From positions 5,331 to 69,330 of the forward strand of contig CANQIV010000001.1 in NCBI GenBank assembly GCA_947624135.1: a stretch of DNA of 64,000 bases, written 5' to 3'. The notes beneath the pieces are model-generated. The model saw only the letters and a program-made list of their open reading frames with translations. It made no database searches and was not told the DNA's origin. This document shows positions 13,864-50,846 of the stretch, piece after piece (the stretch's first letter is position 1; every line of letters begins with the position of its first letter). The translations under genes were made by a program, and so were the position numbers. This DNA comes from an uncultured Bacilli bacterium (lineage in GTDB: Bacteria; Bacillota_I; Bacilli_A; RF39; UBA660).

Positions 13864-14121
13864 ATGACTAAAACAATAGGTAAGGTAATAGATGTTTATA
13901 TTCCAGAACAATATAAAAATGGCGGATTATTAGATGTTATGGATAGGACTAATATTGGTTTTAAAGTAATGGTTAATAATGATATAAAAGAAATTATAGT
14001 AGAAGCAAATGAATTAAATGCAAAAATAATGAAAAATGATTTAGTTTTAATTATAGAGCAAGATATATCAGGTAAACATTTTATCGATATTGAAATTTAT
14101 GAGGGTGATGGTAATGAATAA
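13864..14121 (+). CDS. hypothetical small protein (85 aa), first gene of helicase operon
   Basis: Good RBS AAGGAAG; stop overlaps helicase start. Confidence 0.4.
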   Translation: MTKTIGKVIDVYIPEQYKNGGLLDVMDRTNIGFKVMVNNDIKEIIVEANELNAKIMKNDLVLIIEQDISGKHFIDIEIYEGDGNE

Positions 14122-25285: not shown

Positions 25286-25296
25286 GGAGGTGTATT

Positions 25297-27276
25297 ATGG
25301 CTTTTAAAAGTTATAGTTGGTCTATAGGAACGACAAGTTTTAGAACTAGTCAATTAAATTATAAAATTGAAAGGCAATTACAATTATTAAAGAAATTTTG
25401 GAATGACAACCCTAATTTGAATTGGGACAATGAAACTCAAGAAAAATATTATAATTATTTAAAAGAAAATAATTTTTTATATGGTGAGGCTAGGATTCCA
25501 GATAAGGATGCTAGAGAAAAGACATCAGGTTTAGTAGATATTGGTGTATTAACAAGTGATAGAAAATTAACTGAAGTAGGTTCTAACATTGAACAACTAT
25601 TATATAAAGTAATGAACAAAGATAATATCTTTATGATATCTGAAGATAGCTATAAATATTTATTACAATTTTTAAAACTACAAATTAATAATGCTAATGA
25701 AGGTATAAAAATAAAACCTTTTATTGCTCTTATTTACTTAATTGAAAAATTAGATTACTTATCTTATGATGAATTTACTTATTTGCTTCCACTTTGCAAA
25801 AATAAATATGATGTTAAGAAAATGGCTCAAACGATTAAAAATACTGTAAGAGTTGGGTTTCCTGTTGATGATATTATAACCGAAAAAATACTTGATATGA
25901 ATAATTATATTCAAGCATTATATGATTTTAGCAGAGATTATCCTGTAACCGAAGAAACATTTGAAAGAATAGGATTAAATAGAAAAAGTAAAGCATATGA
26001 TAGACCTTATAATGCAATTTATCATACTTTAGTTGATTTAGTGTTTCATTTAAAGCATAATAATCTTAATGAAAGGCTTCCAAAATATAAGGAATTGTTT
26101 GAAGAATGTAAAAAAATATCTGGTAATGCTAGAATGCTATGGCAAAACTATTTATTTATGGGTGTTAAAATTAATAAAATAGATGAAGAATTTGATAACA
26201 AATTTAAATCATTGGATATTAGTTTATCTAGAAATATTATTGATTTTAAAAAAGAATTTTTTTTAAAAATGCATTTATTTAAATGGAAAGTAAATTTAAG
26301 AGATTATTTTGATTTAAATAAGCGATACTTTTCATTAACAGATATAATAAGATTTGAAGATGAAAAGATAGAATTAGATATGTTGCCTAAATATTATTTT
26401 AAAGATATTATTGATGATTTATTAAATGAAAACTTACTTGATAATGAACAATATTTAAAACAATTTTATTCTGATATTCCACTAGAAAGTATTTCTGAAT
26501 TATATAAAATTGATATAACTAATATTGTTAATAACATTAATAATGACTTAGGAATAAACTTAACACCAGAAAATGTAAATTCTTATATTAAAGATGAAAA
26601 GCTTAAAAATTTTAATGACTTAATTGATCATAAATTTAAAAATGAAGATTTAATTAGAATATTAGAACAAATAAAAAATAGAAATGATGAAGAACTAAAT
26701 TCATATATAACAGATAACGCAGATATTCCAACCATTTTTGAATATATACTTGGTATAGCATGGTATAGAATTAGTGGCAAAAAAGGAAATATTTTAGATT
26801 TTATGAATTTAAGTTTAGATGCAGATTTTTTGCCTAAGACTCATGCTAGTGGAGGAATGGCTGATATAGTTTATAAATATGAAAATAATTCATACCCTAA
26901 ACATGATTTATTAATAGAAGCAACTTTATCTGAATCAACTGGACAAAGAGTTATGGAAATGGAGCCTGTATCTAGACATCTTGGTGAAAATATAAAGCTT
27001 ACAAATAATTTAAATGATTATGCTTTATTCGTTGCTCCTAATTTGGAAGAAAGAATAATATTGGATTTTAGAAACATGAAAACAAGATTCTATCCAAAAG
27101 GTAATGGTGAGTTTATAGAAGGATTAAAAATTATACCAATCGACATAAACATATTAATGAAAATATTACAAAACAATATAAATTATAATGAAATATACAA
27201 TTGGTTTGATAAAGCATTTAAATCTACTATTCCAGATCCACTTTGGTATAGAGAAGAAATTTTAAAAAATATATAA
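25297..27276 (+). CDS. candidate type IIS restriction endonuclease (partner of tandem MTase)
   Basis: 659 aa, no NTP-binding motif; C-terminal block (YR.SGKKG ... GGMADIVY ... HDLLIEAT) has FokI-like cleavage-domain layout (PD...(D/E)x(K/T)); context with double-domain MTase. Confidence 0.4.
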   Translation: MAFKSYSWSIGTTSFRTSQLNYKIERQLQLLKKFWNDNPNLNWDNETQEKYYNYLKENNFLYGEARIPDKDAREKTSGLVDIGVLTSDRKLTEVGSNIEQLLYKVMNKDNIFMISEDSYKYLLQFLKLQINNANEGIKIKPFIALIYLIEKLDYLSYDEFTYLLPLCKNKYDVKKMAQTIKNTVRVGFPVDDIITEKILDMNNYIQALYDFSRDYPVTEETFERIGLNRKSKAYDRPYNAIYHTLVDLVFHLKHNNLNERLPKYKELFEECKKISGNARMLWQNYLFMGVKINKIDEEFDNKFKSLDISLSRNIIDFKKEFFLKMHLFKWKVNLRDYFDLNKRYFSLTDIIRFEDEKIELDMLPKYYFKDIIDDLLNENLLDNEQYLKQFYSDIPLESISELYKIDITNIVNNINNDLGINLTPENVNSYIKDEKLKNFNDLIDHKFKNEDLIRILEQIKNRNDEELNSYITDNADIPTIFEYILGIAWYRISGKKGNILDFMNLSLDADFLPKTHASGGMADIVYKYENNSYPKHDLLIEATLSESTGQRVMEMEPVSRHLGENIKLTNNLNDYALFVAPNLEERIILDFRNMKTRFYPKGNGEFIEGLKIIPIDINILMKILQNNINYNEIYNWFDKAFKSTIPDPLWYREEILKNI

Positions 27277-27277
27277 A

Positions 27278-27307
27278 AGATAGGTGTTGAGTATCTATCT
27301 TTTTTTT
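27278..27307 (+). terminator. rho-independent terminator after candidate REase gene
   Basis: AGATAG-loop-CTATCT hairpin followed by T8. Confidence 0.5.
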
Positions 27308-27362
27308 GATATAATGTTATTAGAAAATACGATGCCGAAAATGGAAATGGAGATGTAAAAAT

Positions 27363-29330
27363 ATGAAAACTATTTCAATTAATAATAGAAGATATATAGG
27401 TAGTAAAGCAAGAATGATTGATTTCATTAATGAAACTATAAAAAAAGAAAAAATTGAGTTTTCTTCATTTTTAGATTTATTCGGTGGAACGGGAATAGTT
27501 GGAAATTTTTTTAATGACCAAAAAACAAAAATATATGTTAATGATTTGTTAAAATCTAATTACTTATCATATTTAGCATGGTTTGGAAATGAAAAAATAG
27601 ATAAAAACAAAATAAAGATTTTTATAAATAAATATAATTCTCTTTCTAATTTAGAAGAAAATTATTTTTCAATTAATTTTAGTGATACTTATTTTAGTAA
27701 AGATAATTGTAAAAAAATTGGTTATATAAGAGAAGATATTGAAGCAAATTATCTTTCCAATAATTTAAATACTAGAGAAAGAGCTATTCTTATAACATCT
27801 TTATTATATGCTATGGATAAAATTGCAAATACAGTTGGGCATTATGATGCATATAGAAAAAATGGAAATTTAGATAAAAAATTAGAATTGTGTATGCTTG
27901 ATTTAAAATCCAACATTAATAATAAAAATAATAAAGTCTTTAATGAAGACTCTAATGAACTTGTAAAAAGTATAAAAGCAGATGTTGTTTATATTGATCC
28001 CCCATATAATTCAAGACAATATTCTGATGCATATCATTTATTAGAAAATGTTGCAATGTGGGAAAAAAATGAAGTTCATGGTGTTGCAAAAAAAATGGAA
28101 AGAAATGGAATTAAAAGTAAATATTGCTCTGTGTCAGCTCCTCTTGCTTTTAAAGATTTAATTGATAACATAGATGCTAAATACATAATTGTTTCATATA
28201 ACAATATGGGAACAAAAGGTGCAGGAAGGTCACAAGCTAAAATAAGTGATGATGATATAATAAATACTTTAAGATTGAAAGGAAAAGTAAAAGTATATGA
28301 AACTGATTTTAATCAGTTTAACACAGGAAAAACCCATATTGACAATCATAAAGAAAGATTATTTATATGTAAAGTTGGAAAAAGCACAAAGAAAAAAACT
28401 AGACATATAGAACCGATTATTGATAAAGTAAAATCTCCATTAAATTATACGGGTGGGAAATATAAATTATTAAATCAAATAATACCTATATTCCCTAATA
28501 ATCTAGACTTATTTGTAGATTTATTCTCTGGTGGATCTAATGTTGGTGTTAATGTTAATGCTAAAAGAATAGTATGTGTAGATAAACAAGAAGAGATTAT
28601 TAGAGTTATGGAATTGTTTAAAAAATATGAAGATGGTTTTATTATAAGTTCTTTAGAAAAAATTATTGATAAATATAATTTAAGTAATTCTTTATTAAAT
28701 GGATATAAAGCATATAATTGTACTAGCGATAAGGGATTAGGAACATATAATAAATCAAAATATTTAGAATTGAGAAAAGATTATAATAATATGAGAGATA
28801 ATTCTACAGAAAAAGATTTATTATTTTTAACATTAGTAATTTATGGATTTAATAATCAAATTAGATTTAATTCTAATGGTGAATTTAATATGCCTGTCGG
28901 GAAAAGAGATTTTAATAATTCTTTAAGAAAAAATTTAAAAAATTTTATAACAAAACTGAAGTCAAAAAATATAGAATTTATTAATTCTGATTTTAGAGAA
29001 TTTGCAATTGAAACAACCAATAACACTTTAGTATATTGCGATCCACCTTATTTTTTAGGGACAGCAAGTTATAATGAAAATGGTGGATGGACAAAACAAG
29101 ATGAAATAGATTTATTAAATTATTTAGCTGTTTTAGATAGTAAAGGTGTAAAATTTGCATTATCAAATGTAATCGAACATAAGGGTAATAAAAATATTAT
29201 ACTTGAAGCTTGGATTAAAGAACATAAATATAATGTTCATATAATTGATTGTGATTATAATAATTCTAATTATCACAAACAACAAGGAAGTATTACGAAA
29301 ACAACAGAAGTCTTAATAACAAATTACTAA
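27363..29330 (+). CDS. tandem two-domain N6-adenine DNA methyltransferase (Dam/D12 class fused pair)
   Basis: two FxGxG motifs (FLDLFGGTG, FVDLFSGGS) and two DPPY motifs (YIDPPYNS, YCDPPYFL); 655 aa. Confidence 0.85.
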   Translation: MKTISINNRRYIGSKARMIDFINETIKKEKIEFSSFLDLFGGTGIVGNFFNDQKTKIYVNDLLKSNYLSYLAWFGNEKIDKNKIKIFINKYNSLSNLEENYFSINFSDTYFSKDNCKKIGYIREDIEANYLSNNLNTRERAILITSLLYAMDKIANTVGHYDAYRKNGNLDKKLELCMLDLKSNINNKNNKVFNEDSNELVKSIKADVVYIDPPYNSRQYSDAYHLLENVAMWEKNEVHGVAKKMERNGIKSKYCSVSAPLAFKDLIDNIDAKYIIVSYNNMGTKGAGRSQAKISDDDIINTLRLKGKVKVYETDFNQFNTGKTHIDNHKERLFICKVGKSTKKKTRHIEPIIDKVKSPLNYTGGKYKLLNQIIPIFPNNLDLFVDLFSGGSNVGVNVNAKRIVCVDKQEEIIRVMELFKKYEDGFIISSLEKIIDKYNLSNSLLNGYKAYNCTSDKGLGTYNKSKYLELRKDYNNMRDNSTEKDLLFLTLVIYGFNNQIRFNSNGEFNMPVGKRDFNNSLRKNLKNFITKLKSKNIEFINSDFREFAIETTNNTLVYCDPPYFLGTASYNENGGWTKQDEIDLLNYLAVLDSKGVKFALSNVIEHKGNKNIILEAWIKEHKYNVHIIDCDYNNSNYHKQQGSITKTTEVLITNY

Positions 29331-29339
29331 GATAATAAA

Positions 29340-29383
29340 AGATGATATAAGCATTTAAATTAATGCTCAATATCATCTTTTTC
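29340..29383. terminator. bidirectional terminator between MTase and relaxase genes
   Basis: AGATGATAT...ATATCATCT 9-bp stem with nested AGCATT/AATGCT hairpin, T run after; overlaps relaxase stop. Confidence 0.5.
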
Positions 29384-30739
29384 TATTGCATAATCTTTTA
29401 AATTATTTAATTTACTTGGATTAGAAAGCAAATTGAAATTATCTTTATCTAAAGCACCATGTTCATATAATTCTTTAGCAAATTCTTCATATCTTTTGTC
29501 TTTTTTAACAAAAATTTTATCCATTAAGAATTGAACTAATCGATAAATCATATCTTTAAAATGTTCAAGTGTTGACTTTAAAGAATGATTTTCTTCTTTT
29601 AATTCTTGAATTTCATTTTCTTTTTCTTTGATATTTTCGTTTAATTTATCAACTTCTTGGTTAAGTGATTCATTATTTTTTGTTAATAATTTTAATCTTT
29701 GTCGATTACTAATTAACTCATTACTAATTTCTTTTAAAGTAACGGATAACTCTTGAATGTTTTGATATTCAGCAATAGTTTTATCTATTAAATCTATAAA
29801 AACAATTGCTTTATCACGATCCTTAACATCTATAACTAACTGATTTTTAATAAGCCCTTTTGCTTTTAAGCTTTCAAGAATTTCTTTAATTTCAGAAATA
29901 TTATTAGATAATTTTTCTGTTTTTTCTTTAGCACTTTTTAAATTATTTTGATGTATTTCAATAGACTTTTTAATCTTTTGGTAGTTTTCCATTTCAGTTA
30001 TATGATAATCTCGATTTCTGCCTTTTAATTTAGCCTTTAATTGATAATTTACTTGATATTCTTTGTTAAAAGATTCCATACAACGCACTCTCATTTTATC
30101 TTGAATTTTTGTTAATGATTCTTTAGTAAAGACATCAGATTTTCCAACTTGTTTAGACATTCCATATTTATTTTTATATTTAACTGGAACACCAATTATA
30201 TGAAGATGTGGACTTGTTTCATCATAATGAATGATTGCACTTGCTATTTTAAAGTTAGGGACAACAGTTTCTAAATCGTTAACTTGTTCTTTAAATACAT
30301 TAGTCATTTTCTTTTTATAATCAATAACTTTTGTATTCCAAAATTCCATATCACCAAGCTCAATAATTATTTCACAAGCCAAATCTTTTTTAGAATTATT
30401 GCTAATATGAGTGAAGTAATCTTTTATTTTTCTATCATCGCGAGCTTGTTTGTTATTATATTCAAGTTTTGCTTCTTCAAACTCATCTATATATAATTTT
30501 TTAATATCATCAACTATCGAAAATGAACCTCTAATAACTTCAATATTTTCTCTATCATTATCATATTTTCTACAATTATGATTATCACATTTTGCTAATC
30601 CTGATGCACTTTGAATAGCACTATTACCCATAGAAGTAGAACCACTAACATTACTTTTACCACTTTTTCTAGAACTATTTTTCTTATTTTTATCATTACT
30701 TAAATGGAAAGAGTAACTTAAGGTTGCTATATAAATCAC
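29360..30739 (-). CDS. MobV/Pre-family relaxase (plasmid recombination enzyme)
   Basis: Mob_Pre motif III HYDETSPHLHIIGVP (HxDExxPHxH), upstream HN.R-like segment, C-terminal coiled coil. Confidence 0.8.
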   Translation of the reverse strand: MIYIATLSYSFHLSNDKNKKNSSRKSGKSNVSGSTSMGNSAIQSASGLAKCDNHNCRKYDNDRENIEVIRGSFSIVDDIKKLYIDEFEEAKLEYNNKQARDDRKIKDYFTHISNNSKKDLACEIIIELGDMEFWNTKVIDYKKKMTNVFKEQVNDLETVVPNFKIASAIIHYDETSPHLHIIGVPVKYKNKYGMSKQVGKSDVFTKESLTKIQDKMRVRCMESFNKEYQVNYQLKAKLKGRNRDYHITEMENYQKIKKSIEIHQNNLKSAKEKTEKLSNNISEIKEILESLKAKGLIKNQLVIDVKDRDKAIVFIDLIDKTIAEYQNIQELSVTLKEISNELISNRQRLKLLTKNNESLNQEVDKLNENIKEKENEIQELKEENHSLKSTLEHFKDMIYRLVQFLMDKIFVKKDKRYEEFAKELYEHGALDKDNFNLLSNPSKLNNLKDYAIEKDDIEH

Positions 30740-30780
30740 ATCTCCTTTCTTTGTTTGTTTTTAGAGTATATTTTGTCTTT

Positions 30781-30849
30781 GACAAAATTATTAACCCCCT
30801 AGGAATTTTGTCATACTAACAAAATACTGGGGGCTAAGGCTCGCCTTAG
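30781..30849. promoter_or_regulatory. putative oriT / mob promoter region
   Basis: GACAAAATT/AATTTTGTC 9-bp IR, CCCCC/GGGGG IR, CTAAGG-CTCG-CCTTAG IR, all in the 150-bp leader upstream of the relaxase gene. Confidence 0.4.
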
Positions 30850-30890
30850 AATCCGAAATTAACTATCGTTAATTTTATAAGTAGAAGAAA

Positions 30891-32825
<1,935 letters not shown>

Positions 32826-32924
32826 CTAAAATCATCTCCTTTTCTCATTTTAAATTCAAAAAAGAGAAGTAAAGGTACTACTATAAAATAATACTTTCAC
32901 TTCTCTAAACTACATTGTAAGACT

Positions 32925-32939
32925 CTTGGTAACTTGGTT
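32925..32939. promoter_or_regulatory. perfect inverted repeat GGTAAC-TTG-GTTACC upstream of recombinase gene
   Basis: direct reading; candidate operator. Confidence 0.25.
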
Positions 32940-33000
32940 ACCATCTATATTAATTATACAACATTTGTCGTAAAAAGTCCATTGTCTAGGAAGTGGTGTA

Positions 33001-33327
33001 TTACTTGATTTTATTGATATATTCTTCTAAATCTGATAATTCAATTTTATTTTTCAAATTTTTAATATAAATATCAGTAGAATAATTAAATGCAAGAAAT
33101 GTTATACCTTTGATAATAATTCTATGAGGTTCTACATAGTTAAGATTAGATTTATCAATTTTTCTAATACTGCCGTTAATGAAAGTAGGAGTCGTCTTAC
33201 AAAACTCACAAATAAACTCTAATCTTTGTTTTAAAGACTTTTCAAAGGGTATTTCTTGTTTAAGTATCTTAATCATAAACACCATCCTTCCTTTAGGATG
33301 ATTTCTTTGTAACAACAAAAAAACCAA
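33001..33327 (-). CDS. hypothetical protein between recombinase and tRNA (possible directionality factor)
   Basis: 108-aa ORF, no motif recognised. Confidence 0.3.
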   Translation of the reverse strand: MVFLLLQRNHPKGRMVFMIKILKQEIPFEKSLKQRLEFICEFCKTTPTFINGSIRKIDKSNLNYVEPHRIIIKGITFLAFNYSTDIYIKNLKNKIELSDLEEYINKIK

Positions 33328-42628: not shown

Positions 42629-42701
42629 ATCATAAATATTTAGTTTTTTCTTTCTTTTTTATATAAAGTGTAGTAAAATATTAATAGTAAGGGTGAACGA
42701 T

Positions 42702-43670
42702 ATGGGATTATTCAATAAATTTAAAAACTTATTTACTAAAAATAATAAAGAAGATATAGAAGCATTTGATAAAGGACTAGAAAAGACAAGAAAAGAATTT
42801 GTAAATAAAATAGGTATATTAAATAGTAAATATAAAAAAGTAAGTAATGAATATTTTGATGAATTAGAAGAAATTCTCATAATGGCTGATATAGGAGTTA
42901 ATACTGTTATTGAATTTATCGATAAATTAAAAAAACGTGTAAAGCATGAAAATATAACTGATAGCGAAGATTTAAAAGAGGTTATAATAGATGAGATGTT
43001 CATAATTTATGTAAATAATCAAATAGTAGTAAATAAAATTAATTATGCTACATCAGGACCAACAGTTATTTTATTTGTAGGAGTAAATGGTGTAGGTAAG
43101 ACAACTACTATTGGTAAATTTGCATCTAAATTAAAAGATATGGATAAAAAAGTAATGCTTGTTGCAGGCGATACATTTAGAGCAGGCGCACAAGAGCAAT
43201 TAAAAGAATGGGCACAAAGGACAGATTCTAAAATAGTAAGTGGAGAATCTAAAGATCCTTCTAGCGTAGTTTATGATGGTGTAAAACAAGCAATAGAAGA
43301 AAATTATGATGTAGTTTTAATAGATACAGCAGGAAGGCTTCAAAATAAAACTAATTTAATGAATGAATTAGAAAAAATGAATAAAGTAATAGGTAAATTA
43401 ATACCTAATGCTCCACATGAAACTTTACTTGTAATAGACGCTACAACAGGTCAAAATGGAATTAGTCAAGCAAAAAGTTTTAAAGAAATAACTAATATAA
43501 CAGGAATAGTTTTAACAAAACTAGATGGTACTGCAAAAGGTGGAATAGTACTTGCTATAAAAGAAGCAGTAGATATTCCAGTAAAATTTGTAGGACTTGG
43601 AGAAAAAGAAAAAGATTTAAGAACATTTGATATAGAAAAATATATATATGGATTATTTAAGGATATGTGA
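42702..43670 (+). CDS. ftsY: signal recognition particle receptor FtsY
   Basis: SRP GTPase motifs GVNGVGKTTT, DTAGRLQ, TKLDG; start re-picked at ATG after AGGGTGA. Confidence 0.9.
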   Translation: MGLFNKFKNLFTKNNKEDIEAFDKGLEKTRKEFVNKIGILNSKYKKVSNEYFDELEEILIMADIGVNTVIEFIDKLKKRVKHENITDSEDLKEVIIDEMFIIYVNNQIVVNKINYATSGPTVILFVGVNGVGKTTTIGKFASKLKDMDKKVMLVAGDTFRAGAQEQLKEWAQRTDSKIVSGESKDPSSVVYDGVKQAIEENYDVVLIDTAGRLQNKTNLMNELEKMNKVIGKLIPNAPHETLLVIDATTGQNGISQAKSFKEITNITGIVLTKLDGTAKGGIVLAIKEAVDIPVKFVGLGEKEKDLRTFDIEKYIYGLFKDM

Positions 43671-43673
43671 TTT

Positions 43674-43943
43674 ATGAATACAAAAATAGTAGATGTAAAA
43701 GAATTTAAAAATGATAGAGTAGGAATACTTGTAGAGGTAGTTTTAATTGAAATGATGATAATATTTTCAATACTTAATTTAATTAATGAAGCTTTTTTAC
43801 CCGCACTCTATATAATAATATCTATGATATTATTTACAATGGCTTATAATAATATTAAAATATTTAAGAAAAAATATATGACGCCAGTATATATAATAAC
43901 AGGTTTATTTGTTGTTATTACAACATTTATGGAGTATTTATAG
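43674..43943 (+). CDS. small membrane protein, hypothetical
   Basis: two TM helices, 89 aa, wedged between ftsY and ylxM. Confidence 0.35.
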   Translation: MNTKIVDVKEFKNDRVGILVEVVLIEMMIIFSILNLINEAFLPALYIIISMILFTMAYNNIKIFKKKYMTPVYIITGLFVVITTFMEYL

Positions 43944-44227
43944 TGAATATATATTATGTAGAACTTTTTGATTATTATGGTGAACTTTTTACCGATAAAC
44001 AAAAAGAATATTTTAAAGATTATTATTTTAATAATTTAACGCTTCAGGAAATAGCTGATAATAATAAAGTAAGTAAAAATGCAGTTCATAAGAATATAAA
44101 AGATATAACAAAAAAGTTAGAATATTATGAAGATAAATTAAAACTATATAATAATAAAAAAGAAATAGAAAAATTGATAATTAATATAGATAAAGGAATA
44201 AAGGAAAAAATAGAGGAGTTGATTTAG
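43943..44227 (+). CDS. ylxM: UPF0122 / YlxM-like putative HTH protein
   Basis: conserved position after ftsY; sigma-70 region-4-like LTLQEIADNNKVSKNAVHKNI. Confidence 0.65.
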   Translation: MNIYYVELFDYYGELFTDKQKEYFKDYYFNNLTLQEIADNNKVSKNAVHKNIKDITKKLEYYEDKLKLYNNKKEIEKLIINIDKGIKEKIEELI

Positions 44228-44228
44228 T

Positions 44229-45983
44229 GTGTTTGGTAAAATATTATATATTAGTGATAGTATAGCTAATATAGGAATACCTAATGGTACGCCTATTAAT
44301 ATGGATCTTTTAAATATGCATATAGTATTTGAAGATGGGGAAAGAAAAGTACTTGGTGAGATAGAAGATGTATCAGAATCTACTATAAAAGTACATTTTT
44401 TAGGTGTAATAGAAAATAATAAATTTATAGGTGGAGTTCTTAGAAAACCTACTTTGGAAGCTAAAATTAGATTTGTGACAGATGATGAATTAAAACTTAT
44501 AACAGGTGAAACAGGAGAAGGAATGTTTAAATTAGGAGTTAGTCCTCTTTATAATGATAAACCAATATATGTAGATATAAATGAATTATGTAGTAATCAT
44601 TTAGCAATCTTTGGTAATACTGGTAGTGGTAAATCATATGGTGTAGCAAGTTTTATACAAAGTATGTTTTATAATACTAATTTTCAACCTTATAGAGCAA
44701 ATTATATGATATTTGATGCTTATGGTGAATATCATAATGCATTTGAAAGATTAAGCGAAGTTAACCCTAATTATCAATTCAAGTACTACACAACAAATAG
44801 AACAGATACAAATGGAGAATTAATAAGAATACCTCTTTGGTTACTTGATATAGATGATTATGCTCTTCTATTGAATGCAGAAAGACATTCTCAATTACAA
44901 ATAATAGAAAAAATGATTAAACTTGCAAGAATAATATCAATGGATACTACTGAAGCAGTAGCTTATAAAAATCATTTAATAGCTAAAGCAATTTTAGATG
45001 TCCTATATACCAATCAAACATCTTCTAGTAAAAGAAATGATATATTTACAATAATTGCAAGTTGTAATACAGAACAATTTAACTTAGAAACACCTATTCA
45101 AGGAATAGGATATGTTAGAAAATTTAGAGAATGTTTTACAATAGATAGATCAGGAGATTTTACTGAAAGTGTACTTATAACTCAATATATAACAAGTTTT
45201 ATAAATGAATCTCTTGATAACTATGAAGCACCTAATGATCATTTATTTACGTTAGATACATTAGAAAAAGCTTTAGATTTTACACTTATTAGTGATGGAT
45301 TTTTAAGAAATAATAAACTATATGATGAAGCAATAACTTTAAAAGTTAGATTACATTCTATCGCAATTAGTGAAGATGCAGAATTTTTCAATTTTCCAAC
45401 ATATGTCGATTTAAATAATTATATAGGTAGTTTAGTTACTAAAAACAATAAGAAATCTCAAATAGTTAACTTTAACTTAGAAGATATAGATGATAGACTT
45501 GCTAAAACTATGGTTAAAATATATTCAAAAATGTTATTTACATTTACAAAACATTTACAATCTCGTGGTTCGATACCATTCCACATTTTACTTGAAGAAT
45601 CACATAGATATGTACAAAATGATAATGATAATTTTTTACTTGGATATAATATATTTGAAAGAATTGCAAAAGAAGGTAGAAAATTTGGGCTTATATTAAA
45701 TTTAGTTTCACAAAGACCAGTTGAACTTTCTGAAACAGTTATATCTCAAATAAGTAATTTCTTAATATTTAAAATGACACATCCAAGAGATTTAGATTAT
45801 ATAAAGAAAATGTTACCAAATATGAGTGCTGAAATAATGGAAAAACAAAAAAGTTTACAACCTGGTATGTGCGTTGCTTTTGGTAGAGCATTTAAAGTAC
45901 CAATGATAATTAAAATGCCATTACCTAATCCAGAACCACATTCAAGTAACGTTGATGTAGTAAAAATTTGGCAAGCTGTATAA
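44229..45983 (+). CDS. HerA/FtsK-superfamily (DUF87-like) ATPase with N-terminal HAS-barrel-like domain
   Basis: Walker A FGNTGSGKSYG, Walker B HILLEESHRY, EGRKFGL...SQRP arginine-finger region; GTG start 1 nt after ylxM stop. Confidence 0.7.
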   Translation: MFGKILYISDSIANIGIPNGTPINMDLLNMHIVFEDGERKVLGEIEDVSESTIKVHFLGVIENNKFIGGVLRKPTLEAKIRFVTDDELKLITGETGEGMFKLGVSPLYNDKPIYVDINELCSNHLAIFGNTGSGKSYGVASFIQSMFYNTNFQPYRANYMIFDAYGEYHNAFERLSEVNPNYQFKYYTTNRTDTNGELIRIPLWLLDIDDYALLLNAERHSQLQIIEKMIKLARIISMDTTEAVAYKNHLIAKAILDVLYTNQTSSSKRNDIFTIIASCNTEQFNLETPIQGIGYVRKFRECFTIDRSGDFTESVLITQYITSFINESLDNYEAPNDHLFTLDTLEKALDFTLISDGFLRNNKLYDEAITLKVRLHSIAISEDAEFFNFPTYVDLNNYIGSLVTKNNKKSQIVNFNLEDIDDRLAKTMVKIYSKMLFTFTKHLQSRGSIPFHILLEESHRYVQNDNDNFLLGYNIFERIAKEGRKFGLILNLVSQRPVELSETVISQISNFLIFKMTHPRDLDYIKKMLPNMSAEIMEKQKSLQPGMCVAFGRAFKVPMIIKMPLPNPEPHSSNVDVVKIWQAV

Positions 45984-45987
45984 ATTA

Positions 45988-46010
45988 AAAAGCAGATTTC
46001 TGCTTTTTTT
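45988..46010 (+). terminator. rho-independent terminator after HerA-like gene
   Basis: AGCAGA-TT-TCTGCT followed by T7. Confidence 0.6.
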
Positions 46011-46095
46011 ATTGTGTTTAACCTTGATAAAAATTAATATAAATGTTATTATTTATATAGATAAAAAGTATAGATAATAAGAGAGGAATAAAATT

Positions 46096-49000
46096 ATGAA
46101 AAAAGAAAATAAAATAAAAGCATTTACACTAGTAGAACTTTTAACTGTAATAGTAATATTAGCAGTAATAGCTTTAATAGCTGTTCCAAAAATATTAGGA
46201 ATAATAAATAATACAAAATTTAAAAAATATAAAATAGAAGAAGAATATATGAAAGAAGCAGCAAAATTATATTATACTAGTAATAATATGGACGAATATG
46301 AACCAGTAGATTTACAAACATTAGTAGATAATAATTTTACAAATCCAGTAGTAGATTCAGGAAATGGAGGCTATTGTAAAGGGAAAGTTATAGAGGATGA
46401 AAAAGGAGTTTTAAAAGGTTGTTTAAAATGTAGTAATTATATTACTAAAGGTTGTGGATATACAGAAGATGATCCAGATGATAAACCAGTAGAAGAACCA
46501 GATGAACCAGTAATAATAGATGCAAATCCGGGAATAATATGTGGAGATAAAAAAGAAGAAGAATACGATAGTATGACAGAATGTCATATAAAAAGTGTAG
46601 AAGATTTAGTAGAATTTACAAAAATGGTAAATGATGAAAAACACACATATACATTTTTAAATAAAATAGTATATTTAGATAAGAATTTAGATATAAAAAA
46701 TTATGAAAAAGGTAAATCATACTTAAATGCAGATGCTCTTGCAGATTTTGATATAAATGGTGATGGAGACGTTACTAGTTTAAAAGATGAAATGACAACA
46801 GATAAAGGATTTTTACCAATAGGAACAAAAAGTCATAGTTTTGCAGGGACATTTGAAGGAAATGCTTACACAATAAAAAATTTAATGATAAATAGACCTG
46901 ATGTTGATAATGTAGGATTATTTGGATATGCTTATTATGCAGAAATAAAAGGATTTAATTTAGAGAATGTAAATATAACAGGTAATAATAATGTAGGAGG
47001 GGTTGCAGGATATAGTTATACAGGTAAAGTTAAAGAAATAACATTAAGCGGAAATATAACAGGTCATGACTATGTTGGAGGAATAACAGGGCATTATGCT
47101 AATGGAGCAAACTCCATAAGTGTAATATTAAATGCAAATATTACAGGTAATGATCATGTATATGGAATAAGTGATTCTAATTCTAACAGCAAAGGAGTAG
47201 TAGAAAGTGGAACTATAACAGGAAATTTAAATGTATATGGAGGTTCTTCTTCTAGTTCATCATCACTTGTAAATGAAAAAGTAATAATTGATGCTCCAGA
47301 AGATGCTATAACCCTTGGTGGAACTTTATATAAAGATACTACATATGGAGATTTAAATTTATACGATACTCCTAATAATGCAAGCATAATAGATACATAT
47401 TTAGGTGGAGATAATGATAGTTCAGGGTATTATTTTGATTATAATAAGAATGGAAAATTAGTAATAAAGAGTACAAAAAAAGACCCATTAGATTACACTT
47501 TACAAGGAGAAGGAACAAAGGAAGACCCATATTTAATATATACTTATGAAGATTATAAAAAAATAGCGTTAATGCCAACAGAAGCAAACTATTATAAATT
47601 GATGGCTGATATAGATTTTACAAATAAAAAATATTATATGATAGGAACATATGCATATAATTTTAAAGGAAATTTTGATGGTAATGTTCATACATTAAAA
47701 AATATGGAATTAGAGGGATATAATTATGTCGGTCTATTTGGATATTTAGATGGTGGCGAAATGAAAGGATTTAATATAAAAAATATAAATGTATTAGGTC
47801 AAAATGATTATGTAGGAGGGGTTGCAGGATATAGTTATACAGGTAAAGTTAAAGAAATAACATTAAGCGGAAATATAACAGGTCACGACTATGTTGGAGG
47901 AATAACAGGGCGTTATGCTAATGGAGCAAACTCCATAAGTGTAATATTAAATGCAAATATTACAGGTAATGATCATGTATATGGAATAAGTGATTCTAAT
48001 TCTAACAGCAAAGGAGTAGTAGAAAGTGGAACTATAACAGGAAATTTAAATGTATATGGAGGTTCTTCTTCTAGTTCATCATCACTTGTAAATGAAAAAG
48101 TAATAATTGATGCTCCAGAAGATGCTATAACCCTTGGTGGAACTTTATATAAAGATACTACATATGGAGATTTAAATTTATACGATACTCCTAATAATGC
48201 AAGCATAATAGATACATATTTAGGTGGAGATAATGATAGTTCAGGGTATTATTTTGATTATAATAAGAATGGAAAATTAGTAATAAAGAGTACAAAAAAA
48301 GACCCATTAGATTACACTTTACAAGGAGAAGGAACAAAGGAAGACCCATATTTAATATATACTTATGAAGATTATAAAAAAATAGCGTTAATGCCAACAG
48401 AAGCAAACTATTATAAATTGATGGCTGATATAGATTTTACAAATAAAAAATATTATATGATAGGAACATATGCATATAATTTTAAAGGAAATTTTGATGG
48501 TAATGTTCATACATTAAAAAATATGGAATTAGAGGGATATAATTATGTCGGTCTATTTGGATATTTAGATGGTGGCGAAATGAAAGGATTTAATATAAAA
48601 AATATAAATGTAATAGGTCAAAATGATTATGTAGGTGGAATAACAGGATATAGTTATAATCCAAGTAGCGTTATTAAAGAAATAACATTAAGTGGAAATA
48701 TAACAGGTCATAATAGTGTTGGAGGAATAGCAGGTTCTACTGGAAATGGTGCAGTAGTTTCAAGTGTAATAGTAAATGCAAATGTAACAGGTAATACTTA
48801 TGTATATGGAATTTCTTATAATGGTACAGGAGTAATCGAAAGTGGAACTATAAAAGGAAATTCATCAGTATATGGTGGTTTTGGTTGGGGTTCTACAGCA
48901 TTCGTAAATAAAAAAGTTAAAATAGAATCAGAAAGTACACCTAATGTAGGTGGAACACTATATGAAGATACAATATATGGAAACCTAAATTTATATGATA

Positions 49001-50355
49001 CTCTTGATAAAACAAATATAATAGATACATATTTAGGTGGAGATAATGATAGTTCAGGATATTATTTTGATTATAATAAGAATGGAAAATTAGTAATAAA
49101 AAGTACAGAAAAAGACCCAATAGATTACACCTTACAAGGAGAAGGAACAGAGGAAACCCCATATTTAATATATACTTATGAAGATTATAAAAAGATAGCG
49201 TTAATGCCAACAGAAACAAACTATTATAAATTAATGGCTGATATAGATTTTACAAATAAAAAATATTATATGATAGGTACAAATGCATACAGATTTAAAG
49301 GAAATTTTGATGGTAATGCTTATACATTAAAGAATATGGAATTAGAAGGATATAAATATGTTGGATTATTTGGATATATGGATAGTTCATCAGAAATAAA
49401 AGGTTTTAATGTAGAAAACATAAATGTATTAGGACAAAACGATTATGTAGGTGGAATTGCTGGAGAGTGTTATTCTAGTCAAGTTAAAGAAATAACATTA
49501 AGTGGAAATATAACAGGTAATAATCGTGTTGGAGGAATAGTAGGTCATAATGAAGGTAGTACAACATCAATAGCGAGCGTAATAGTAAATGCGAATGTTA
49601 CAGGTAATACTTATGTATATGGAATTTCTTATAATGGTACAGGAGTAATCGAAAGTGGAACTATAAAAGGAAATTCATCAGTATATGGTGGTTTTGGTTG
49701 GGGTTCTACAGCATTCGTAAATGAAAAAGTAAAAATAGAAGCAACAGGTACACCTAGTTTAGGTGGTAAACGTTTCCCTGAAAATCATTATAATGTTTTA
49801 AGTGAATATGCACTATTAAAAAATAGTAGTAATTATATAATAGATACACCATATAGTGGAGATACAGATAATTCAGGATATTGGTTTGATTATAACGATT
49901 ATGGAGATGACATAATAGTAGTAAAAGCAGGAAGCGCAGCAACAAATCCAAATGTTAATCCAAATAATCCTGGCGAAACATCAGAACCAACAATAGTACA
50001 TGAAAAAACAACAAATCCAGATAAACCATTCCCAGAATGTAAAGTAACTAGATTTGATACATATGGAAGAGGATTTACCGCATCATATTCATGTACAGAT
50101 GCAGAGTCAATAGTTGAAATAAAACACATATATTGGGTAAAAGCGGATGTAGATGATTATGATTCATTAGTAGAGTGGAAAAACATAACTCCAGGACCAT
50201 CTACAAGTTATAGTAGTGTATGGACAGAAAGTAGTGCGGCTGGTCAAGGAATAACACCGCCATATCCAGGAAATTGTTATTATTTCTATTACGGCGCTAA
50301 AAACCAAGCAGGTAATGAAAGAATATACAGAACTGGTTATTGTTTAAGTTATTAA
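46096..50355 (+). CDS. giant type IV pilin-like protein with GLUG-motif repeat modules
   Basis: class III (prepilin) signal MKKENKIK-AFTLVELLTVIVILAVIALIAVP; four ~273-aa modules with GLUG-like YVGG(I/V)(A/T)G motifs; Cys-containing C-terminal domain; 1419 aa. Confidence 0.75.
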   Translation: MKKENKIKAFTLVELLTVIVILAVIALIAVPKILGIINNTKFKKYKIEEEYMKEAAKLYYTSNNMDEYEPVDLQTLVDNNFTNPVVDSGNGGYCKGKVIEDEKGVLKGCLKCSNYITKGCGYTEDDPDDKPVEEPDEPVIIDANPGIICGDKKEEEYDSMTECHIKSVEDLVEFTKMVNDEKHTYTFLNKIVYLDKNLDIKNYEKGKSYLNADALADFDINGDGDVTSLKDEMTTDKGFLPIGTKSHSFAGTFEGNAYTIKNLMINRPDVDNVGLFGYAYYAEIKGFNLENVNITGNNNVGGVAGYSYTGKVKEITLSGNITGHDYVGGITGHYANGANSISVILNANITGNDHVYGISDSNSNSKGVVESGTITGNLNVYGGSSSSSSSLVNEKVIIDAPEDAITLGGTLYKDTTYGDLNLYDTPNNASIIDTYLGGDNDSSGYYFDYNKNGKLVIKSTKKDPLDYTLQGEGTKEDPYLIYTYEDYKKIALMPTEANYYKLMADIDFTNKKYYMIGTYAYNFKGNFDGNVHTLKNMELEGYNYVGLFGYLDGGEMKGFNIKNINVLGQNDYVGGVAGYSYTGKVKEITLSGNITGHDYVGGITGRYANGANSISVILNANITGNDHVYGISDSNSNSKGVVESGTITGNLNVYGGSSSSSSSLVNEKVIIDAPEDAITLGGTLYKDTTYGDLNLYDTPNNASIIDTYLGGDNDSSGYYFDYNKNGKLVIKSTKKDPLDYTLQGEGTKEDPYLIYTYEDYKKIALMPTEANYYKLMADIDFTNKKYYMIGTYAYNFKGNFDGNVHTLKNMELEGYNYVGLFGYLDGGEMKGFNIKNINVIGQNDYVGGITGYSYNPSSVIKEITLSGNITGHNSVGGIAGSTGNGAVVSSVIVNANVTGNTYVYGISYNGTGVIESGTIKGNSSVYGGFGWGSTAFVNKKVKIESESTPNVGGTLYEDTIYGNLNLYDTLDKTNIIDTYLGGDNDSSGYYFDYNKNGKLVIKSTEKDPIDYTLQGEGTEETPYLIYTYEDYKKIALMPTETNYYKLMADIDFTNKKYYMIGTNAYRFKGNFDGNAYTLKNMELEGYKYVGLFGYMDSSSEIKGFNVENINVLGQNDYVGGIAGECYSSQVKEITLSGNITGNNRVGGIVGHNEGSTTSIASVIVNANVTGNTYVYGISYNGTGVIESGTIKGNSSVYGGFGWGSTAFVNEKVKIEATGTPSLGGKRFPENHYNVLSEYALLKNSSNYIIDTPYSGDTDNSGYWFDYNDYGDDIIVVKAGSAATNPNVNPNNPGETSEPTIVHEKTTNPDKPFPECKVTRFDTYGRGFTASYSCTDAESIVEIKHIYWVKADVDDYDSLVEWKNITPGPSTSYSSVWTESSAAGQGITPPYPGNCYYFYYGAKNQAGNERIYRTGYCLSY
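46990..48633 (+). repeat. perfect (or near-perfect) 819-bp tandem duplication inside pilin-like gene, plus two diverged downstream copies
   Basis: identical antisense ORFs 47154-47387 / 47973-48206 and 47372-47587 / 48191-48406; GTTGCAGG at 47002 and 47821. Confidence 0.85.
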
Positions 50356-50367
50356 AAAAAATTTTTA

Positions 50368-50392
50368 AAAAAGCAGTTTTTCTGCTTTTTTT
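50368..50392 (+). terminator. rho-independent terminator after pilin-like gene
   Basis: AGCAG-TTTTT-CTGCT followed by T7; near-identical to terminator at 45988. Confidence 0.6.
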
Positions 50393-50528
50393 ACTGAAAT
50401 TATTAAAAAATTGAGAAAATCGCCTCTAAAATTAAAAAATTACATTTTTGTGAGTGTAGAAATTCAAAAACGTATGTTTGACCTTTAAATACAACTATGT
50501 TACTATGTTTTTGAAAGGAGGGAAATTT

Positions 50529-50846
50529 GTGCTTAATCAAGCAGTTTTAGTTGGAAGAATAGTTGAAGATCCTGAACTAAAAGATACAGAAAAAGGCAAA
50601 GTAACTAACATAACTTTGGCTGTACCAAGATCTTTTAAAAATTCTAACGGAGAATATGATACTGACTTTATTTCCTGTGTTTTATGGAAAGGTGTAGCAG
50701 AAAGTACAGTAGAATATTGTAAAAAGGGTGATTTAGTTGGAATTAAGGGAAGAATTCAAACTAGAAACGTAGAATTTGAAGATCAAAGCCATAAACAATT
50801 TGTGGAAGTAGTAGCAGAAAAAGTCACATTTTTATCTAGTAAGTAA
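50529..50846 (+). CDS. ssb: single-stranded DNA-binding protein lacking acidic C-terminal tail (SsbB-like)
   Basis: OB-fold LVGRIVEDPELK...; ends ...VTFLSSK with no DDDIPF tail; GTG start after GGAGGG RBS. Confidence 0.7.
   Translation: MLNQAVLVGRIVEDPELKDTEKGKVTNITLAVPRSFKNSNGEYDTDFISCVLWKGVAESTVEYCKKGDLVGIKGRIQTRNVEFEDQSHKQFVEVVAEKVTFLSSK

What the first reader, a model, noticed from the sequence alone, without database searches (positions are those of the whole stretch)
46096..50355. 1419-aa modular type IV pilin-like protein with GLUG-repeat modules
A canonical prepilin leader plus hydrophobic helix (MKKENKIK-AFTLVELLTVIVILAVIALIAVP) is fused to more than 1300 aa. This region contains four ~273-aa modules with GLUG-like YVGG(I/V)AG beta-helix motifs and a Cys-containing C-terminal domain. 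Ordinary pilins are 120-170 aa. Giant modular pilins are rare, and this one carries an adhesin/IgA-protease-type repeat. No prepilin peptidase or pilus assembly genes lie in the window.
Basis: partly seen in the sequence, partly recalled or inferred. Interest (0 to 1): 0.7.

Follow-up and report, generated by a model that had tools for sequence, protein, structure and literature searches.

The report
Giant modular type IV pilin adhesin
This gene encodes a very large pilin-type surface protein: a small pilus-subunit head carrying four beta-helix repeat modules and an end domain. It is real and belongs to an abundant but unstudied family in uncultured gut bacteria, and this kind of architecture (modular pilins) has already been described.

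Summary
ORF 46096-50355 (+) encodes 1419 aa with these parts:
- a prepilin-type N-terminus (Pfam N_methyl and TIGR02532, both above their cut-offs);
- a small pilin head;
- an acidic Pro-rich linker;
- four tandem ~273-aa GLUG/Peptidase_M26_N-like beta-helix modules (819-nt DNA period);
- a conserved ~120-aa Cys-containing beta-sandwich end domain.

It has no metalloprotease domain. The gene has its own promoter and terminator and sits among housekeeping genes. No pilus machinery lies in the window.

More than 860 relatives exist in metagenomes. Nearly all start K/R-G-FTL(I/V)ELL and carry 2-4 or more modules. They come from low-GC uncultured gut Bacilli/"Tenericutes" MAGs.

The best reading is a modular minor type IV pilin, as defined by Raynaud et al. 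2021. That paper's census already lists the N_methyl+GLUG architecture. The protein is probably shown at a filament tip as a long adhesin.

Three points stay open:
- residue -1 is Ala, not Gly;
- a prepilin peptidase and assembly genes could not be checked in this genome, although relatives carry a solitary PilB;
- the module count rests on short-read assemblies.

In this lineage, large prepilin-type adhesins look unusually numerous. That leaves a bindosome-like display mechanism possible.

The parts
45987..46008 (+). Terminator-like hairpin plus T-run that ends the upstream HerA-like ATPase gene. It marks the 5' boundary of the pilin transcription unit.
   Evidence: sequence
46024..46052 (+). 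Sigma-70-type promoter-like site, TTGATA-17-TATTAT, with an extended -10 TG
   Evidence: 10 of 12 matches, the best in the region. This is a consensus match only.
46080..46088 (+). Ribosome-binding site AGAGAGGAA, 7 nt upstream of the ATG
   Evidence: read directly from the sequence
46096..50355 (+). Complete ORF of 1419 aa plus stop codon: a modular prepilin-type protein
46096..46122 (+). Leader peptide MKKENKIKA (residues 1-9), basic and short (type IVa-like). The predicted prepilin-peptidase cleavage site lies after Ala9.
   Evidence: The family alignment places G/A at this position in all members.
46123..46185 (+). alpha1N: FTLVELLTVIVILAVIALIAV (residues 10-30). Phe+1 and Glu+5 are followed by 21 mostly hydrophobic residues. 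This is the membrane anchor and filament-assembly interface.
   Evidence: F10, T11, L12, E14 and L15 are invariant in the family. PDB pilin alignments start at F10.
46186..46458 (+). Remainder of the pilin module (residues 31-121): alpha1C to residue 62, a short helix, and a small beta-sheet with Cys94/109/112/120
46459..46518 (+). Acidic, Pro-rich linker GYTEDDPDDKPVEEPDEPVII (residues 121-141)
   Evidence: pLDDT below 50 from residue 126
46519..47502 (+). Module 1 (residues 142-469). It has a family-conserved cap (NPGIICG...ECHIKSVEDLV, Cys149/Cys163), followed by the GLUG beta-helix and a YYFDYN hairpin.
47503..48321 (+). Module 2 (residues 470-742), 84% identical to module 1 over the shared part
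48322..49134 (+). Module 3 (residues 743-1013)
49135..49923 (+). Module 4 (residues 1014-1276). The beta-helix is predicted with pLDDT 85-94.
   Evidence: weak Foldseek match to the S. pneumoniae IgA1 protease (6xja, 7jgj)
49924..50352 (+). Pro/Asn-rich linker plus the C-terminal ~120-aa beta-sandwich domain (residues 1277-1419; Cys1315/1333/1394/1416; ends ...CYYFYYGAKNQAGNERIYRTGYCLSY)
   Evidence: It is conserved at the extreme C-terminus in relatives with 2, 3 or 4 modules. Only 27 representatives exist among 1.84 billion proteins, most of them with a prepilin N-terminus. There is no specific PDB match.
50367..50391 (.). Bidirectional terminator-like hairpin (AAAAAAGCAGTTTTTCTGCTTTTTT), 12 nt after the stop codon

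Best explanation
The gene encodes a multi-modular type IV pilin, that is, a 'modular pilin' in the sense of Raynaud et al. 2021.

Shown:
- It has a class III (prepilin-type) signal peptide and a small pilin-fold head.
- An acidic linker follows, then four tandem GLUG/M26_N-type beta-helix modules.
- A conserved terminal beta-sandwich domain ends the protein.
- It is one monocistronic unit.
- It belongs to a large family whose members keep the two ends and vary the number of modules.

Inferred mechanism:
- The precursor is inserted into the membrane through its hydrophobic alpha1N helix.
- A prepilin peptidase encoded elsewhere in the genome cuts after Ala9 and methylates Phe1.
- The pilin head is then incorporated as a low-abundance (minor) subunit of a type IV filament.
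- The most likely position is the tip, because about 1280 extra residues cannot pack in the filament body.
- There the four beta-helix modules form a rigid stalk a few tens of nanometres long.
- The stalk presents the conserved C-terminal domain, and possibly the helix surfaces, to a ligand on host mucus, food particles or other cells.
- Changes in module number, and gene conversion between modules, tune the length and antigenicity of the stalk.
For: Prepilin N-terminus:
- N_methyl and TIGR02532 score above their cut-offs, and there is a GspG-like match over residues 9-100.
- F+1, T+2, L+3, E+5 and L+6 are invariant, and -1 is G or A, in family members that are only 30-50% identical overall. 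A plain signal-anchor would not conserve a charged residue inside its membrane helix.

Pilin fold:
- All 20 PDB profile hits are pilins or pseudopilins. The best are S. sanguinis PilE1 (8pfb) and a Geobacter pilin, and the alignments start at the mature Phe1.
- The AlphaFold model shows alpha1 (residues 12-62) plus beta-strands at pLDDT 80.

Passenger region:
- Glug and Peptidase_M26_N score above their cut-offs.
- The module-4 model is a beta-helix with pLDDT 85-94, followed by a beta-sandwich.
- There is no HExxH motif.

Family:
- The search found 862 hits, almost all carrying N_methyl.
- The C-terminal domain is retained at the very end in members of ~890, ~1190 and ~1490 aa, which corresponds to 2, 3 and 4 modules.

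Precedent:
- S. sanguinis PilB and PilC are modular pilins presented by the pilus. The InterPro architecture N_methyl + IPR011493 is listed with 6 proteins.

Machinery in the lineage:
- In an Erysipelotrichia MAG, a multi-module GLUG protein lies next to PilB and six pilin genes (L009).
- A relative with 26% GC, whose HA-helicase is 54% identical to the window's, has a solitary PilB next to two minor-pilin-like genes among housekeeping genes.
- So an absence of machinery near the gene is normal in these genomes.
Against: - Residue -1 is Ala, whereas bacterial prepilins are described as ending invariably in Gly, a residue that is critical for cleavage. Tolerance of Ala is known to me only from P. 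aeruginosa mutagenesis (Strom and Lory 1991, from memory).
- No prepilin peptidase, assembly ATPase or platform protein could be tied to this genome. None is in the window, and attempts to link one failed.
- No pilin of this size has been shown in a filament. How a ~150-kDa passenger would cross a Gram-positive wall is unexplained.
- The adhesin role and the ligand are pure inference. The C-terminal domain has no informative structural or sequence match.
Confidence: 0.6

Rival explanations
1. Display without a pilus (bindosome-like). The class III signal peptide serves here as a general export and anchoring device. After processing, or even without it, the protein stays anchored in the membrane by alpha1N, or sits on a very short pseudopilus. 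It then acts as a cell-surface fibrillar adhesin rather than the tip of a long pilus.
For: - In 760 kb of relatives' DNA chosen without regard to pilins, there are 14 canonical prepilin-type ORFs and 0 in the reversed control. Eleven of them encode at least 317 aa.
- Their passengers are the usual Gram-positive wall-adhesin repeats: Flg_new, InlB B-repeat, fn3, Ig-like.
- Only one LPXTG-like protein was seen in the same sample by a crude regex.
- These genes are scattered as single units among housekeeping genes.
- The archaeal bindosome is a precedent for class III signal peptides on non-filament surface proteins.
Against: - Glu+5 and the whole alpha1N are conserved as in filament-forming pilins.
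- A folded pilin head with disulfides is retained in every member, which a mere anchor would not need.
- PilB and clusters of small tandem major-pilin genes exist in the lineage.
- The gene-density estimate comes from regex scans of unbinned metagenome contigs.
Confidence: 0.25
2. Generic signal-anchor. The N-terminus only resembles a prepilin leader, is never processed by a prepilin peptidase, and the protein is an ordinary membrane-anchored surface protein.
For: Ala at -1 instead of Gly. No peptidase could be demonstrated for this genome.
Against: - Most family members have the full K/R-G-FTL(I/V)ELL motif.
- Both curated prepilin models are passed.
- The PDB profile hits are exclusively pilins, and the predicted head has a pilin-like fold.
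Confidence: 0.06
3. A pilus-borne M26-type (IgA1-protease-like) peptidase, as the InterPro label of this architecture might suggest.
For: Peptidase_M26_N hit of 45 bits. Raynaud et al. describe IPR012902-IPR011493 as a 'predicted peptidase'.
Against: - Only positions ~188-250 of the non-catalytic N-terminal model are matched, once per module.
- There is no M26 catalytic-domain hit even at E<=1.
- There is no HExxH anywhere in the protein.
- The matched region of the pneumococcal enzyme gives only a weak Foldseek match (E 0.14).
Confidence: 0.02
4. Assembly artefact. The long ORF, or its four modules, result from mis-assembly of near-identical 819-nt repeats.
For: Modules 1 and 2 share 99-100% identical 300-nt stretches. 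Most contigs of the same species end at or inside the gene.
Against: - Three independent assemblies give 1419, 1419 and 1415 aa with the same four-module order.
- Relatives on contigs of 350-850 kb have the same architecture.
- The reading frame is intact throughout.
Confidence: 0.05

Closest known systems
Modular type IV pilins: Streptococcus sanguinis PilB (pilin + vWA) and PilC (pilin + lectin) (Raynaud et al. 2021, PMC8179133; Shahin et al. 2023, PMC9934059)
   Same: [quoted passage not shown] Both come from a monoderm (Bacilli) background. The best PDB sequence match of the head includes S. sanguinis PilE1.
   Different: The passenger here is about 1280 aa, made of four tandem beta-helix modules plus an end domain, rather than one ~300-aa domain. 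The gene is solitary rather than inside a pil locus. Residue -1 is Ala. Nothing has been shown experimentally.
InterPro architecture IPR012902-IPR011493 (N_methyl + GLUG) in the modular-pilin census of Raynaud et al. 2021 (Dataset S1, 6 proteins)
   Same: It has the same two signatures in the same order.
   Different: The census entry is a bare domain string that the authors read as a possible M26 peptidase. Here the protein lacks the catalytic part, carries four modules plus a conserved C-terminal domain, and belongs to a family of more than 860 metagenomic proteins.
N-terminal beta-helix region of the S. pneumoniae IgA1 protease ZmpA (Pfam Peptidase_M26_N / GLUG; PDB 6xja, 7jgj)
   Same: The repeat signature (V/I)GG(I/V)xG and the FxGxFDGNxxTIxNL cap are shared. 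Peptidase_M26_N scores above its cut-off, and there is a weak structural match of ~230 columns.
   Different: There is no zinc-metalloprotease domain and no LPXTG or G5 region. The beta-helix unit is repeated four times and sits on a pilin N-terminus.
Tip-located minor pilins with extra domains: ETEC CofB (pilin + beta-repeat + beta-sandwich) and Thermus ComZ (pilin with beta-solenoid) (cited in PMC8179133; PMC6561018)
   Same: A pilin module carries beta-rich extension domains that end in, or contain, a beta-sandwich or beta-solenoid and are proposed to sit at the filament tip.
   Different: There is no detectable sequence relationship. Those proteins are 500-550 aa and are encoded in their pilus operons. 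A trimeric tip arrangement is unknown here.
Sulfolobus bindosome (surface sugar-binding proteins with class III signal peptides, assembled by the Bas system) (reviewed in PMC4471445)
   Same: A class III signal peptide is attached to large functional surface proteins that are many per genome and are not obviously filament subunits.
   Different: It is archaeal, its passengers are solute-binding proteins, and it has a dedicated Bas machinery. Here it is only an analogy for the rival mechanism.

Membership tests
Type IV pilin / class III signal peptide protein | Short hydrophilic leader peptide ending in Gly(-1) | tested here: inconclusive
   The leader MKKENKIKA is short and basic, but it ends in Ala. 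Most family members have Gly; this species and P0024 have Ala. The review states that Gly is invariant in bacteria and critical. Ala tolerance is known to me only from memory of P. aeruginosa mutagenesis.
Type IV pilin / class III signal peptide protein | Phe(+1), Glu(+5) and about 21 mainly hydrophobic residues; match to curated N-terminal models | tested here: met
   The sequence FTLVELLTVIVILAVIALIAV is present. Pfam N_methyl scores 22.6 against a cut-off of 21.2, and TIGR02532 scores 20.2 against 16.3. These positions are invariant in the family.
Type IV pilin / class III signal peptide protein | Pilin fold: a long alpha1 helix packed on a small antiparallel beta-sheet, usually with a C-terminal disulfide | tested here: met
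Type IV pilin / class III signal peptide protein | A dedicated prepilin peptidase, assembly ATPase and platform protein encoded in the same genome | not testable with these tools
   Only 64 kb of the genome is available, and none of these genes is in it. Attempts to link one to this genome failed. Relatives have PilB.
Type IV pilin / class III signal peptide protein | Cleavage, N-methylation and incorporation into a filament | not testable with these tools
   This is an experimental question.
Modular pilin (Raynaud et al. 2021) | An N-terminal pilin module (IPR012902) followed, via a linker, by at least one domain not specific to type IV filament biology | tested here: met
   The order is pilin head (residues 1-121), acidic linker (121-141), then Glug/Peptidase_M26_N modules.
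GLUG motif proteins (Pfam PF07581) | Score above the Pfam gathering threshold | tested here: met
   31.0 bits against a cut-off of 20.5, in 3 stretches. Eight (V/I)GG(I/V)xG motifs are present.
M26 IgA1-specific metalloendopeptidase | Catalytic M26 domain with an HExxH zinc-binding motif | tested here: not met
   There is no catalytic-domain hit at E<=1 and no HExxH in the protein.
M26 IgA1-specific metalloendopeptidase | The N-terminal region (PF05342) matched over its full length | tested here: not met
   Only model positions ~188-250 of 250 are matched, once per module.

The most novel reading that the evidence does not exclude
In this uncultured, ~24-30% GC gut Bacilli lineage, the prepilin (class III) signal peptide may have become the main way of exporting and displaying the cell's adhesin repertoire. 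By rough extrapolation (about one such gene per 54 kb sampled, genome size assumed), that would be some tens of large prepilin-type proteins per small genome. They carry GLUG, Flg_new, InlB-B, fn3 and Ig-like passengers and are scattered as solitary genes. The 1419-aa protein would then be one member of a 'pilin-anchored surfaceome' shown on short pseudopili or directly from the membrane. That would be a bacterial counterpart of the archaeal bindosome, not a classical pilus-tip subunit.
Probability: 0.25. Interest if true: 0.7.

Novelty: new member of a known kind. Interest (0 to 1): 0.4.

Why it matters
Modular pilins are the current explanation for how simple type IV filaments gain many functions, but only two (S. 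sanguinis PilB and PilC) have been studied in any depth. This protein and its family of more than 860 members extend the idea to very large, multi-module, length-variable passengers. They come from abundant but uncultured gut bacteria.

If the protein is really assembled into a filament, it would be among the largest pilins known. It would also raise the question of how a ~150-kDa passenger is moved through a Gram-positive wall.

The conserved, rare C-terminal domain is a candidate new ligand-binding domain for gut colonisation. The apparent excess of large prepilin-type adhesins in the lineage could be tested directly on complete genomes.

Tried and rejected
1. HerA-like ATPase as a partner of the pilin.
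- The upstream gene (44229-45983) has orthologs next to pilin genes in L042 and L094. This suggested a new ATPase-pilin system.
- An unbiased set of 80 ortholog loci showed immediate adjacency in only 2 of 80. Prepilin gene density there was no higher than in the single 64-kb window.
- The conserved synteny is ftsY-orf89-ylxM-HerA-[variable slot]-ffh. The slot holds unrelated genes in the closest relatives.
- Rejected as a functional link.

Two PilB look-ups led to another species. The look-up of the window protein itself returned 'not on record'. The downstream end of the contig holds no pilus genes.

4. Foldseek of module 4 plus the C-terminal domain: no hit at E<0.05. phmmer of one module and of the C-terminal domain against the PDB: nothing.

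5. Tandem Repeats Finder found nothing because the period (819 nt) exceeds its limit.

6. The word-indexed search with the 123-aa head alone gave only 6 hits.

7. Spurious Pfam hits were disregarded: COX5B (on the YYFDYN hairpin), BOP1NT, HigB and Aspzincin.

8. Phage origin: PHROG hits are to families of unknown function only, and there is no phage context.

9. A literature search for GLUG together with pilin found nothing relevant.

Full report
**1. Observation**

The ORF 46096-50355 (+) is intact and encodes 1419 aa.

- N-terminus. MKKENKIKA|FTLVELLTVIVILAVIALIAV passes the curated thresholds of Pfam N_methyl (22.6 vs 21.2 bits) and NCBIfam TIGR02532 (20.2 vs 16.3). Residues 9-100 also resemble GspG-type pseudopilins weakly. 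It is the only prepilin motif in an open frame in the window. A stricter scan gave 1 hit and 0 in the reversed-sequence control.
- Repeats. The DNA holds four copies of a unit with 819/813/816-nt spacing. Modules 1 and 2 are 99-100% identical over 300-nt stretches. At protein level the modules are 52-84% identical, and each has two (V/I)GG(I/V)xG motifs.
- Domains. Pfam Glug and Peptidase_M26_N score above their cut-offs. No M26 catalytic domain is found and there is no HExxH.
- Cysteines. Eleven cysteines cluster mainly in the head (94, 109, 112, 120), the cap of module 1 (149, 163) and the C-terminal domain (1315, 1333, 1394, 1416); one more lies in module 4 (1125).

**2. Gene and surroundings**

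The gene is its own transcription unit.

- A terminator-like hairpin closes the upstream gene.
- An extended -10 promoter-like site lies at 46024-52, and a ribosome-binding site lies 7 nt before the ATG.
- A bidirectional hairpin follows 12 nt after the stop codon.

The window is ordinary chromosome with ~24% GC. Its genes include gap, ruvAB, addAB, polA, ftsY, ylxM, a HerA-like ATPase, the pilin gene, ssb, htrA, a class A PBP, argS, prfA, rimM and trmD. A small restriction-modification/Mob/recombinase island lies at 23.5-33 kb.

No T2SSE ATPase, platform protein or A24 peptidase is present. This rests on Pfam scans and on local PilB/T/C/D HMMs that recovered the machinery genes near the pilin genes of the cultured Bacillales loci, used as positive controls.

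**3. The parts**

- Linker. Residues 121-141 (GYTEDDPDDKPVEEPDEPVII) are acidic, Pro-rich and disordered in the model.
- Modules. Module 4 is predicted as a beta-helix (pLDDT 85-94), followed by a hairpin (YWFDYN...IVVVK). The only recognisable structural neighbour of the helix is the pneumococcal IgA1 protease, and the match is weak.
- C-terminal domain. It is a beta-sandwich of ~120 aa with no informative match. It is rare: 27 representatives among 1.84 billion proteins. It always sits at the extreme C-terminus, mostly of proteins that start with a prepilin motif and contain GLUG-like motifs.

**4. Family**

- The full protein finds 862 relatives at E<1e-5. The nearest non-self relatives are only 48-50% identical. 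Almost all are annotated with N_methyl and are 865-2133 aa long.
- Their N-termini read K/R-G-FTL(I/V)ELL. This species and P0024 have Ala at -1.
- F+1, T+2, L+3, E+5 and L+6 are invariant across members that are 30-50% identical overall. So is a cap motif, NPGIICG...C(H/Y)I(K/R)S(V/I)EDLV, at the start of the passenger.
- In the closer subfamily the C-terminal domain is kept while length falls into classes of ~890, ~1190 and ~1490 aa. That corresponds to 2, 3 or 4 modules.
- A strain variant (P0121) carries the same eight changes in module 1 and module 2. This points to gene conversion between modules, or to read mixing.
- Hits in species-representative genomes come from uncultured gut 'Tenericutes', Bacilli and Erysipelotrichia MAGs. 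The nearest is UMGS872 at 50% identity.

**5. Context of relatives, and the machinery question**

- Relatives' genes also lie alone among housekeeping genes, for example upstream of murG-murB-ftsQAZ.
- Among ~70 gut-MAG loci holding prepilin-type genes, only two have a PilB-like ATPase within 10 kb.
- One of them, L009 (an Erysipelotrichia MAG), has a multi-module GLUG protein ending 66 nt from a convergent PilB. Two minor and four tandem major pilin genes follow. The N-terminus of that GLUG protein is cut off by the contig end.
- In a relative with 26% GC, whose HA-helicase is 54% identical to the window's, PilB is a solitary gene among mutS, lon, priA and fmt. It is flanked only by two minor-pilin-like genes, one of 558 aa.
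- Scattered type IV filament genes are therefore the rule in this group. The lack of machinery in the window says little.
- I could not show a peptidase or ATPase in this very genome.

**6. Mechanism**

The best-supported reading is a modular minor pilin. It would be inserted into the membrane through alpha1N, cut after Ala9 and methylated by a prepilin peptidase. Its head would then be incorporated into a type IV filament, most plausibly at the tip. The four beta-helices would act as a stalk, and the conserved end domain as the binding part.

- Shown: the sequence signatures, the predicted folds, the conservation pattern, the module-number variation and the monocistronic organisation.
- Inferred: processing, filament incorporation, tip position and the adhesin role.

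The main weaknesses are Ala at -1 (the review calls Gly invariant and critical in bacteria), the unverified machinery, and the absence of any precedent for a pilin this large.

**7. Rival and novel reading**

- In 760 kb of relatives' DNA selected through the HerA-like gene, not through pilins, I found 14 canonical prepilin ORFs and 0 in the reversed control. Eleven encode at least 317 aa.
- Ten large ones from this set and from the pilin-selected loci carry Flg_new, InlB B-repeat, fn3 and Ig-like domains.
- A crude scan found a single LPXTG-like protein in the same DNA.
- So the prepilin N-terminus may be the lineage's general display device for adhesins, as in the archaeal bindosome. The protein would then be membrane- or pseudopilus-anchored.
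- I give this reading 0.25. It rests on regex counts in unbinned contigs.

**8. Comparison with what is known**

- Raynaud et al. 2021 defined modular pilins. They showed that S. sanguinis PilB is a pilus-borne adhesin.
- Their census covers more than 1200 proteins in 264 architectures. It includes IPR012902-IPR011493 (N_methyl + GLUG; 6 proteins), which they read as a possible M26 peptidase.
- The present protein meets the definition of a modular pilin and of a GLUG protein. It fails the defining feature of an M26 peptidase.
- It is therefore a new, unusually large, multi-module member of a known kind. It belongs to a large uncharacterised metagenomic family.

**9. Rejected lead**

The HerA-like ATPase just upstream has orthologs beside pilin genes in three lineages. 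However, 80 unbiased ortholog loci show this is a variable slot in a conserved ftsY-ylxM-HerA-...-ffh arrangement. It is not a functional pairing.

**10. Verdict**

Novelty is modest at the level of kind. Interest is 0.4. The open and testable points are the processing of an Ala(-1) prepilin, filament incorporation of a ~150-kDa subunit, and the lineage-wide excess of large prepilin-type adhesins.

Noticed in passing
Loci L096-L175 (relatives, 760 kb); also L003, L004, L042, L043, L056, L082: Large prepilin-type proteins are unusually frequent in this lineage. About one canonical K/R-G-FTLIEL gene occurs per 54 kb, and 11 of 14 encode at least 317 aa. Their passengers include Flg_new, InlB B-repeat, fn3 and Ig-like domains. 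Only one LPXTG-like protein was found in the same DNA.
   Followed up: partly
window 44229-45983 (+) and 42693-44227: A 584-aa HerA/FtsK-superfamily ATPase (DUF87; below all NCBIfam HerA cut-offs) sits directly after ftsY-orf89-ylxM, where ffh is normally expected. In relatives the order is ftsY-orf89-ylxM-HerA-[variable gene]-ffh. The variable slot sometimes holds a pilin gene (window, L042, L116, L128). No ffh lies downstream of the pilin gene here (ssb and htrA follow), and none was found in the window.
   Followed up: yes
L094 200-4380: This locus holds a compact cluster: two small prepilin genes (137 and 119 aa), a DUF2207_C membrane protein, a HerA ortholog (45% identical to the window's) and a thermonuclease. 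The 137-aa pilin is the closest stand-alone relative of the giant protein's head, at 38% identity.
   Followed up: partly
L009 1-6206: In an Erysipelotrichia MAG, a multi-module GLUG protein (N-terminus lost at the contig end) ends 66 nt from a convergent PilB. Two minor-pilin-like genes and four tandem ~165-aa major-pilin genes follow.
   Followed up: partly
window 47245-47295 and 48064-48114 (residues 384-399 and 657-672): Strain variant P0121 differs from the window protein by the same eight changes in module 1 and in module 2. This suggests gene conversion between modules, or mixing of reads during assembly.
   Followed up: no
L088-L093 (the same species in other samples): Most contigs carrying the upstream ATPase end just after it or about 1.9 kb into the pilin gene. 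This is consistent with assembly breaks caused by the 819-nt repeats.
   Followed up: partly
window 23510-33327: This looks like an integrated mobile element. It holds an AAA_15/AbiEii-like ATPase, an AlwI-type restriction endonuclease, a fused D12-class adenine methyltransferase, a Mob_Pre relaxase (-), a large serine recombinase (-) and a 108-aa ORF. GC skew inverts locally at 30-34 kb.
   Followed up: no
window 50478-50846 (+): A short single-strand DNA-binding protein (122 aa, TTG start) lies directly downstream of the pilin gene. Its best match is a short-SSB model (PRK06752). An SSB also precedes a 548-aa prepilin gene in L062.
   Followed up: no
window 14090-16720 (+) and 21594-22799 (+): The first gene is an 876-aa ResIII helicase with four 'helicase-associated' HA domains. 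It has a 54%-identical ortholog near the solitary PilB in L176. The second is a 401-aa protein with three Lipoprotein_Ltp repeats.
   Followed up: no
L176/L178 7708-9905 (-): Divergent from the solitary PilB are two minor-pilin-like genes with non-standard motifs (G|FLLTE and G|ITIVE). One encodes 558 aa with an ALK_LTK_GRD glycine-rich domain, so it is another kind of large pilin.
   Followed up: no
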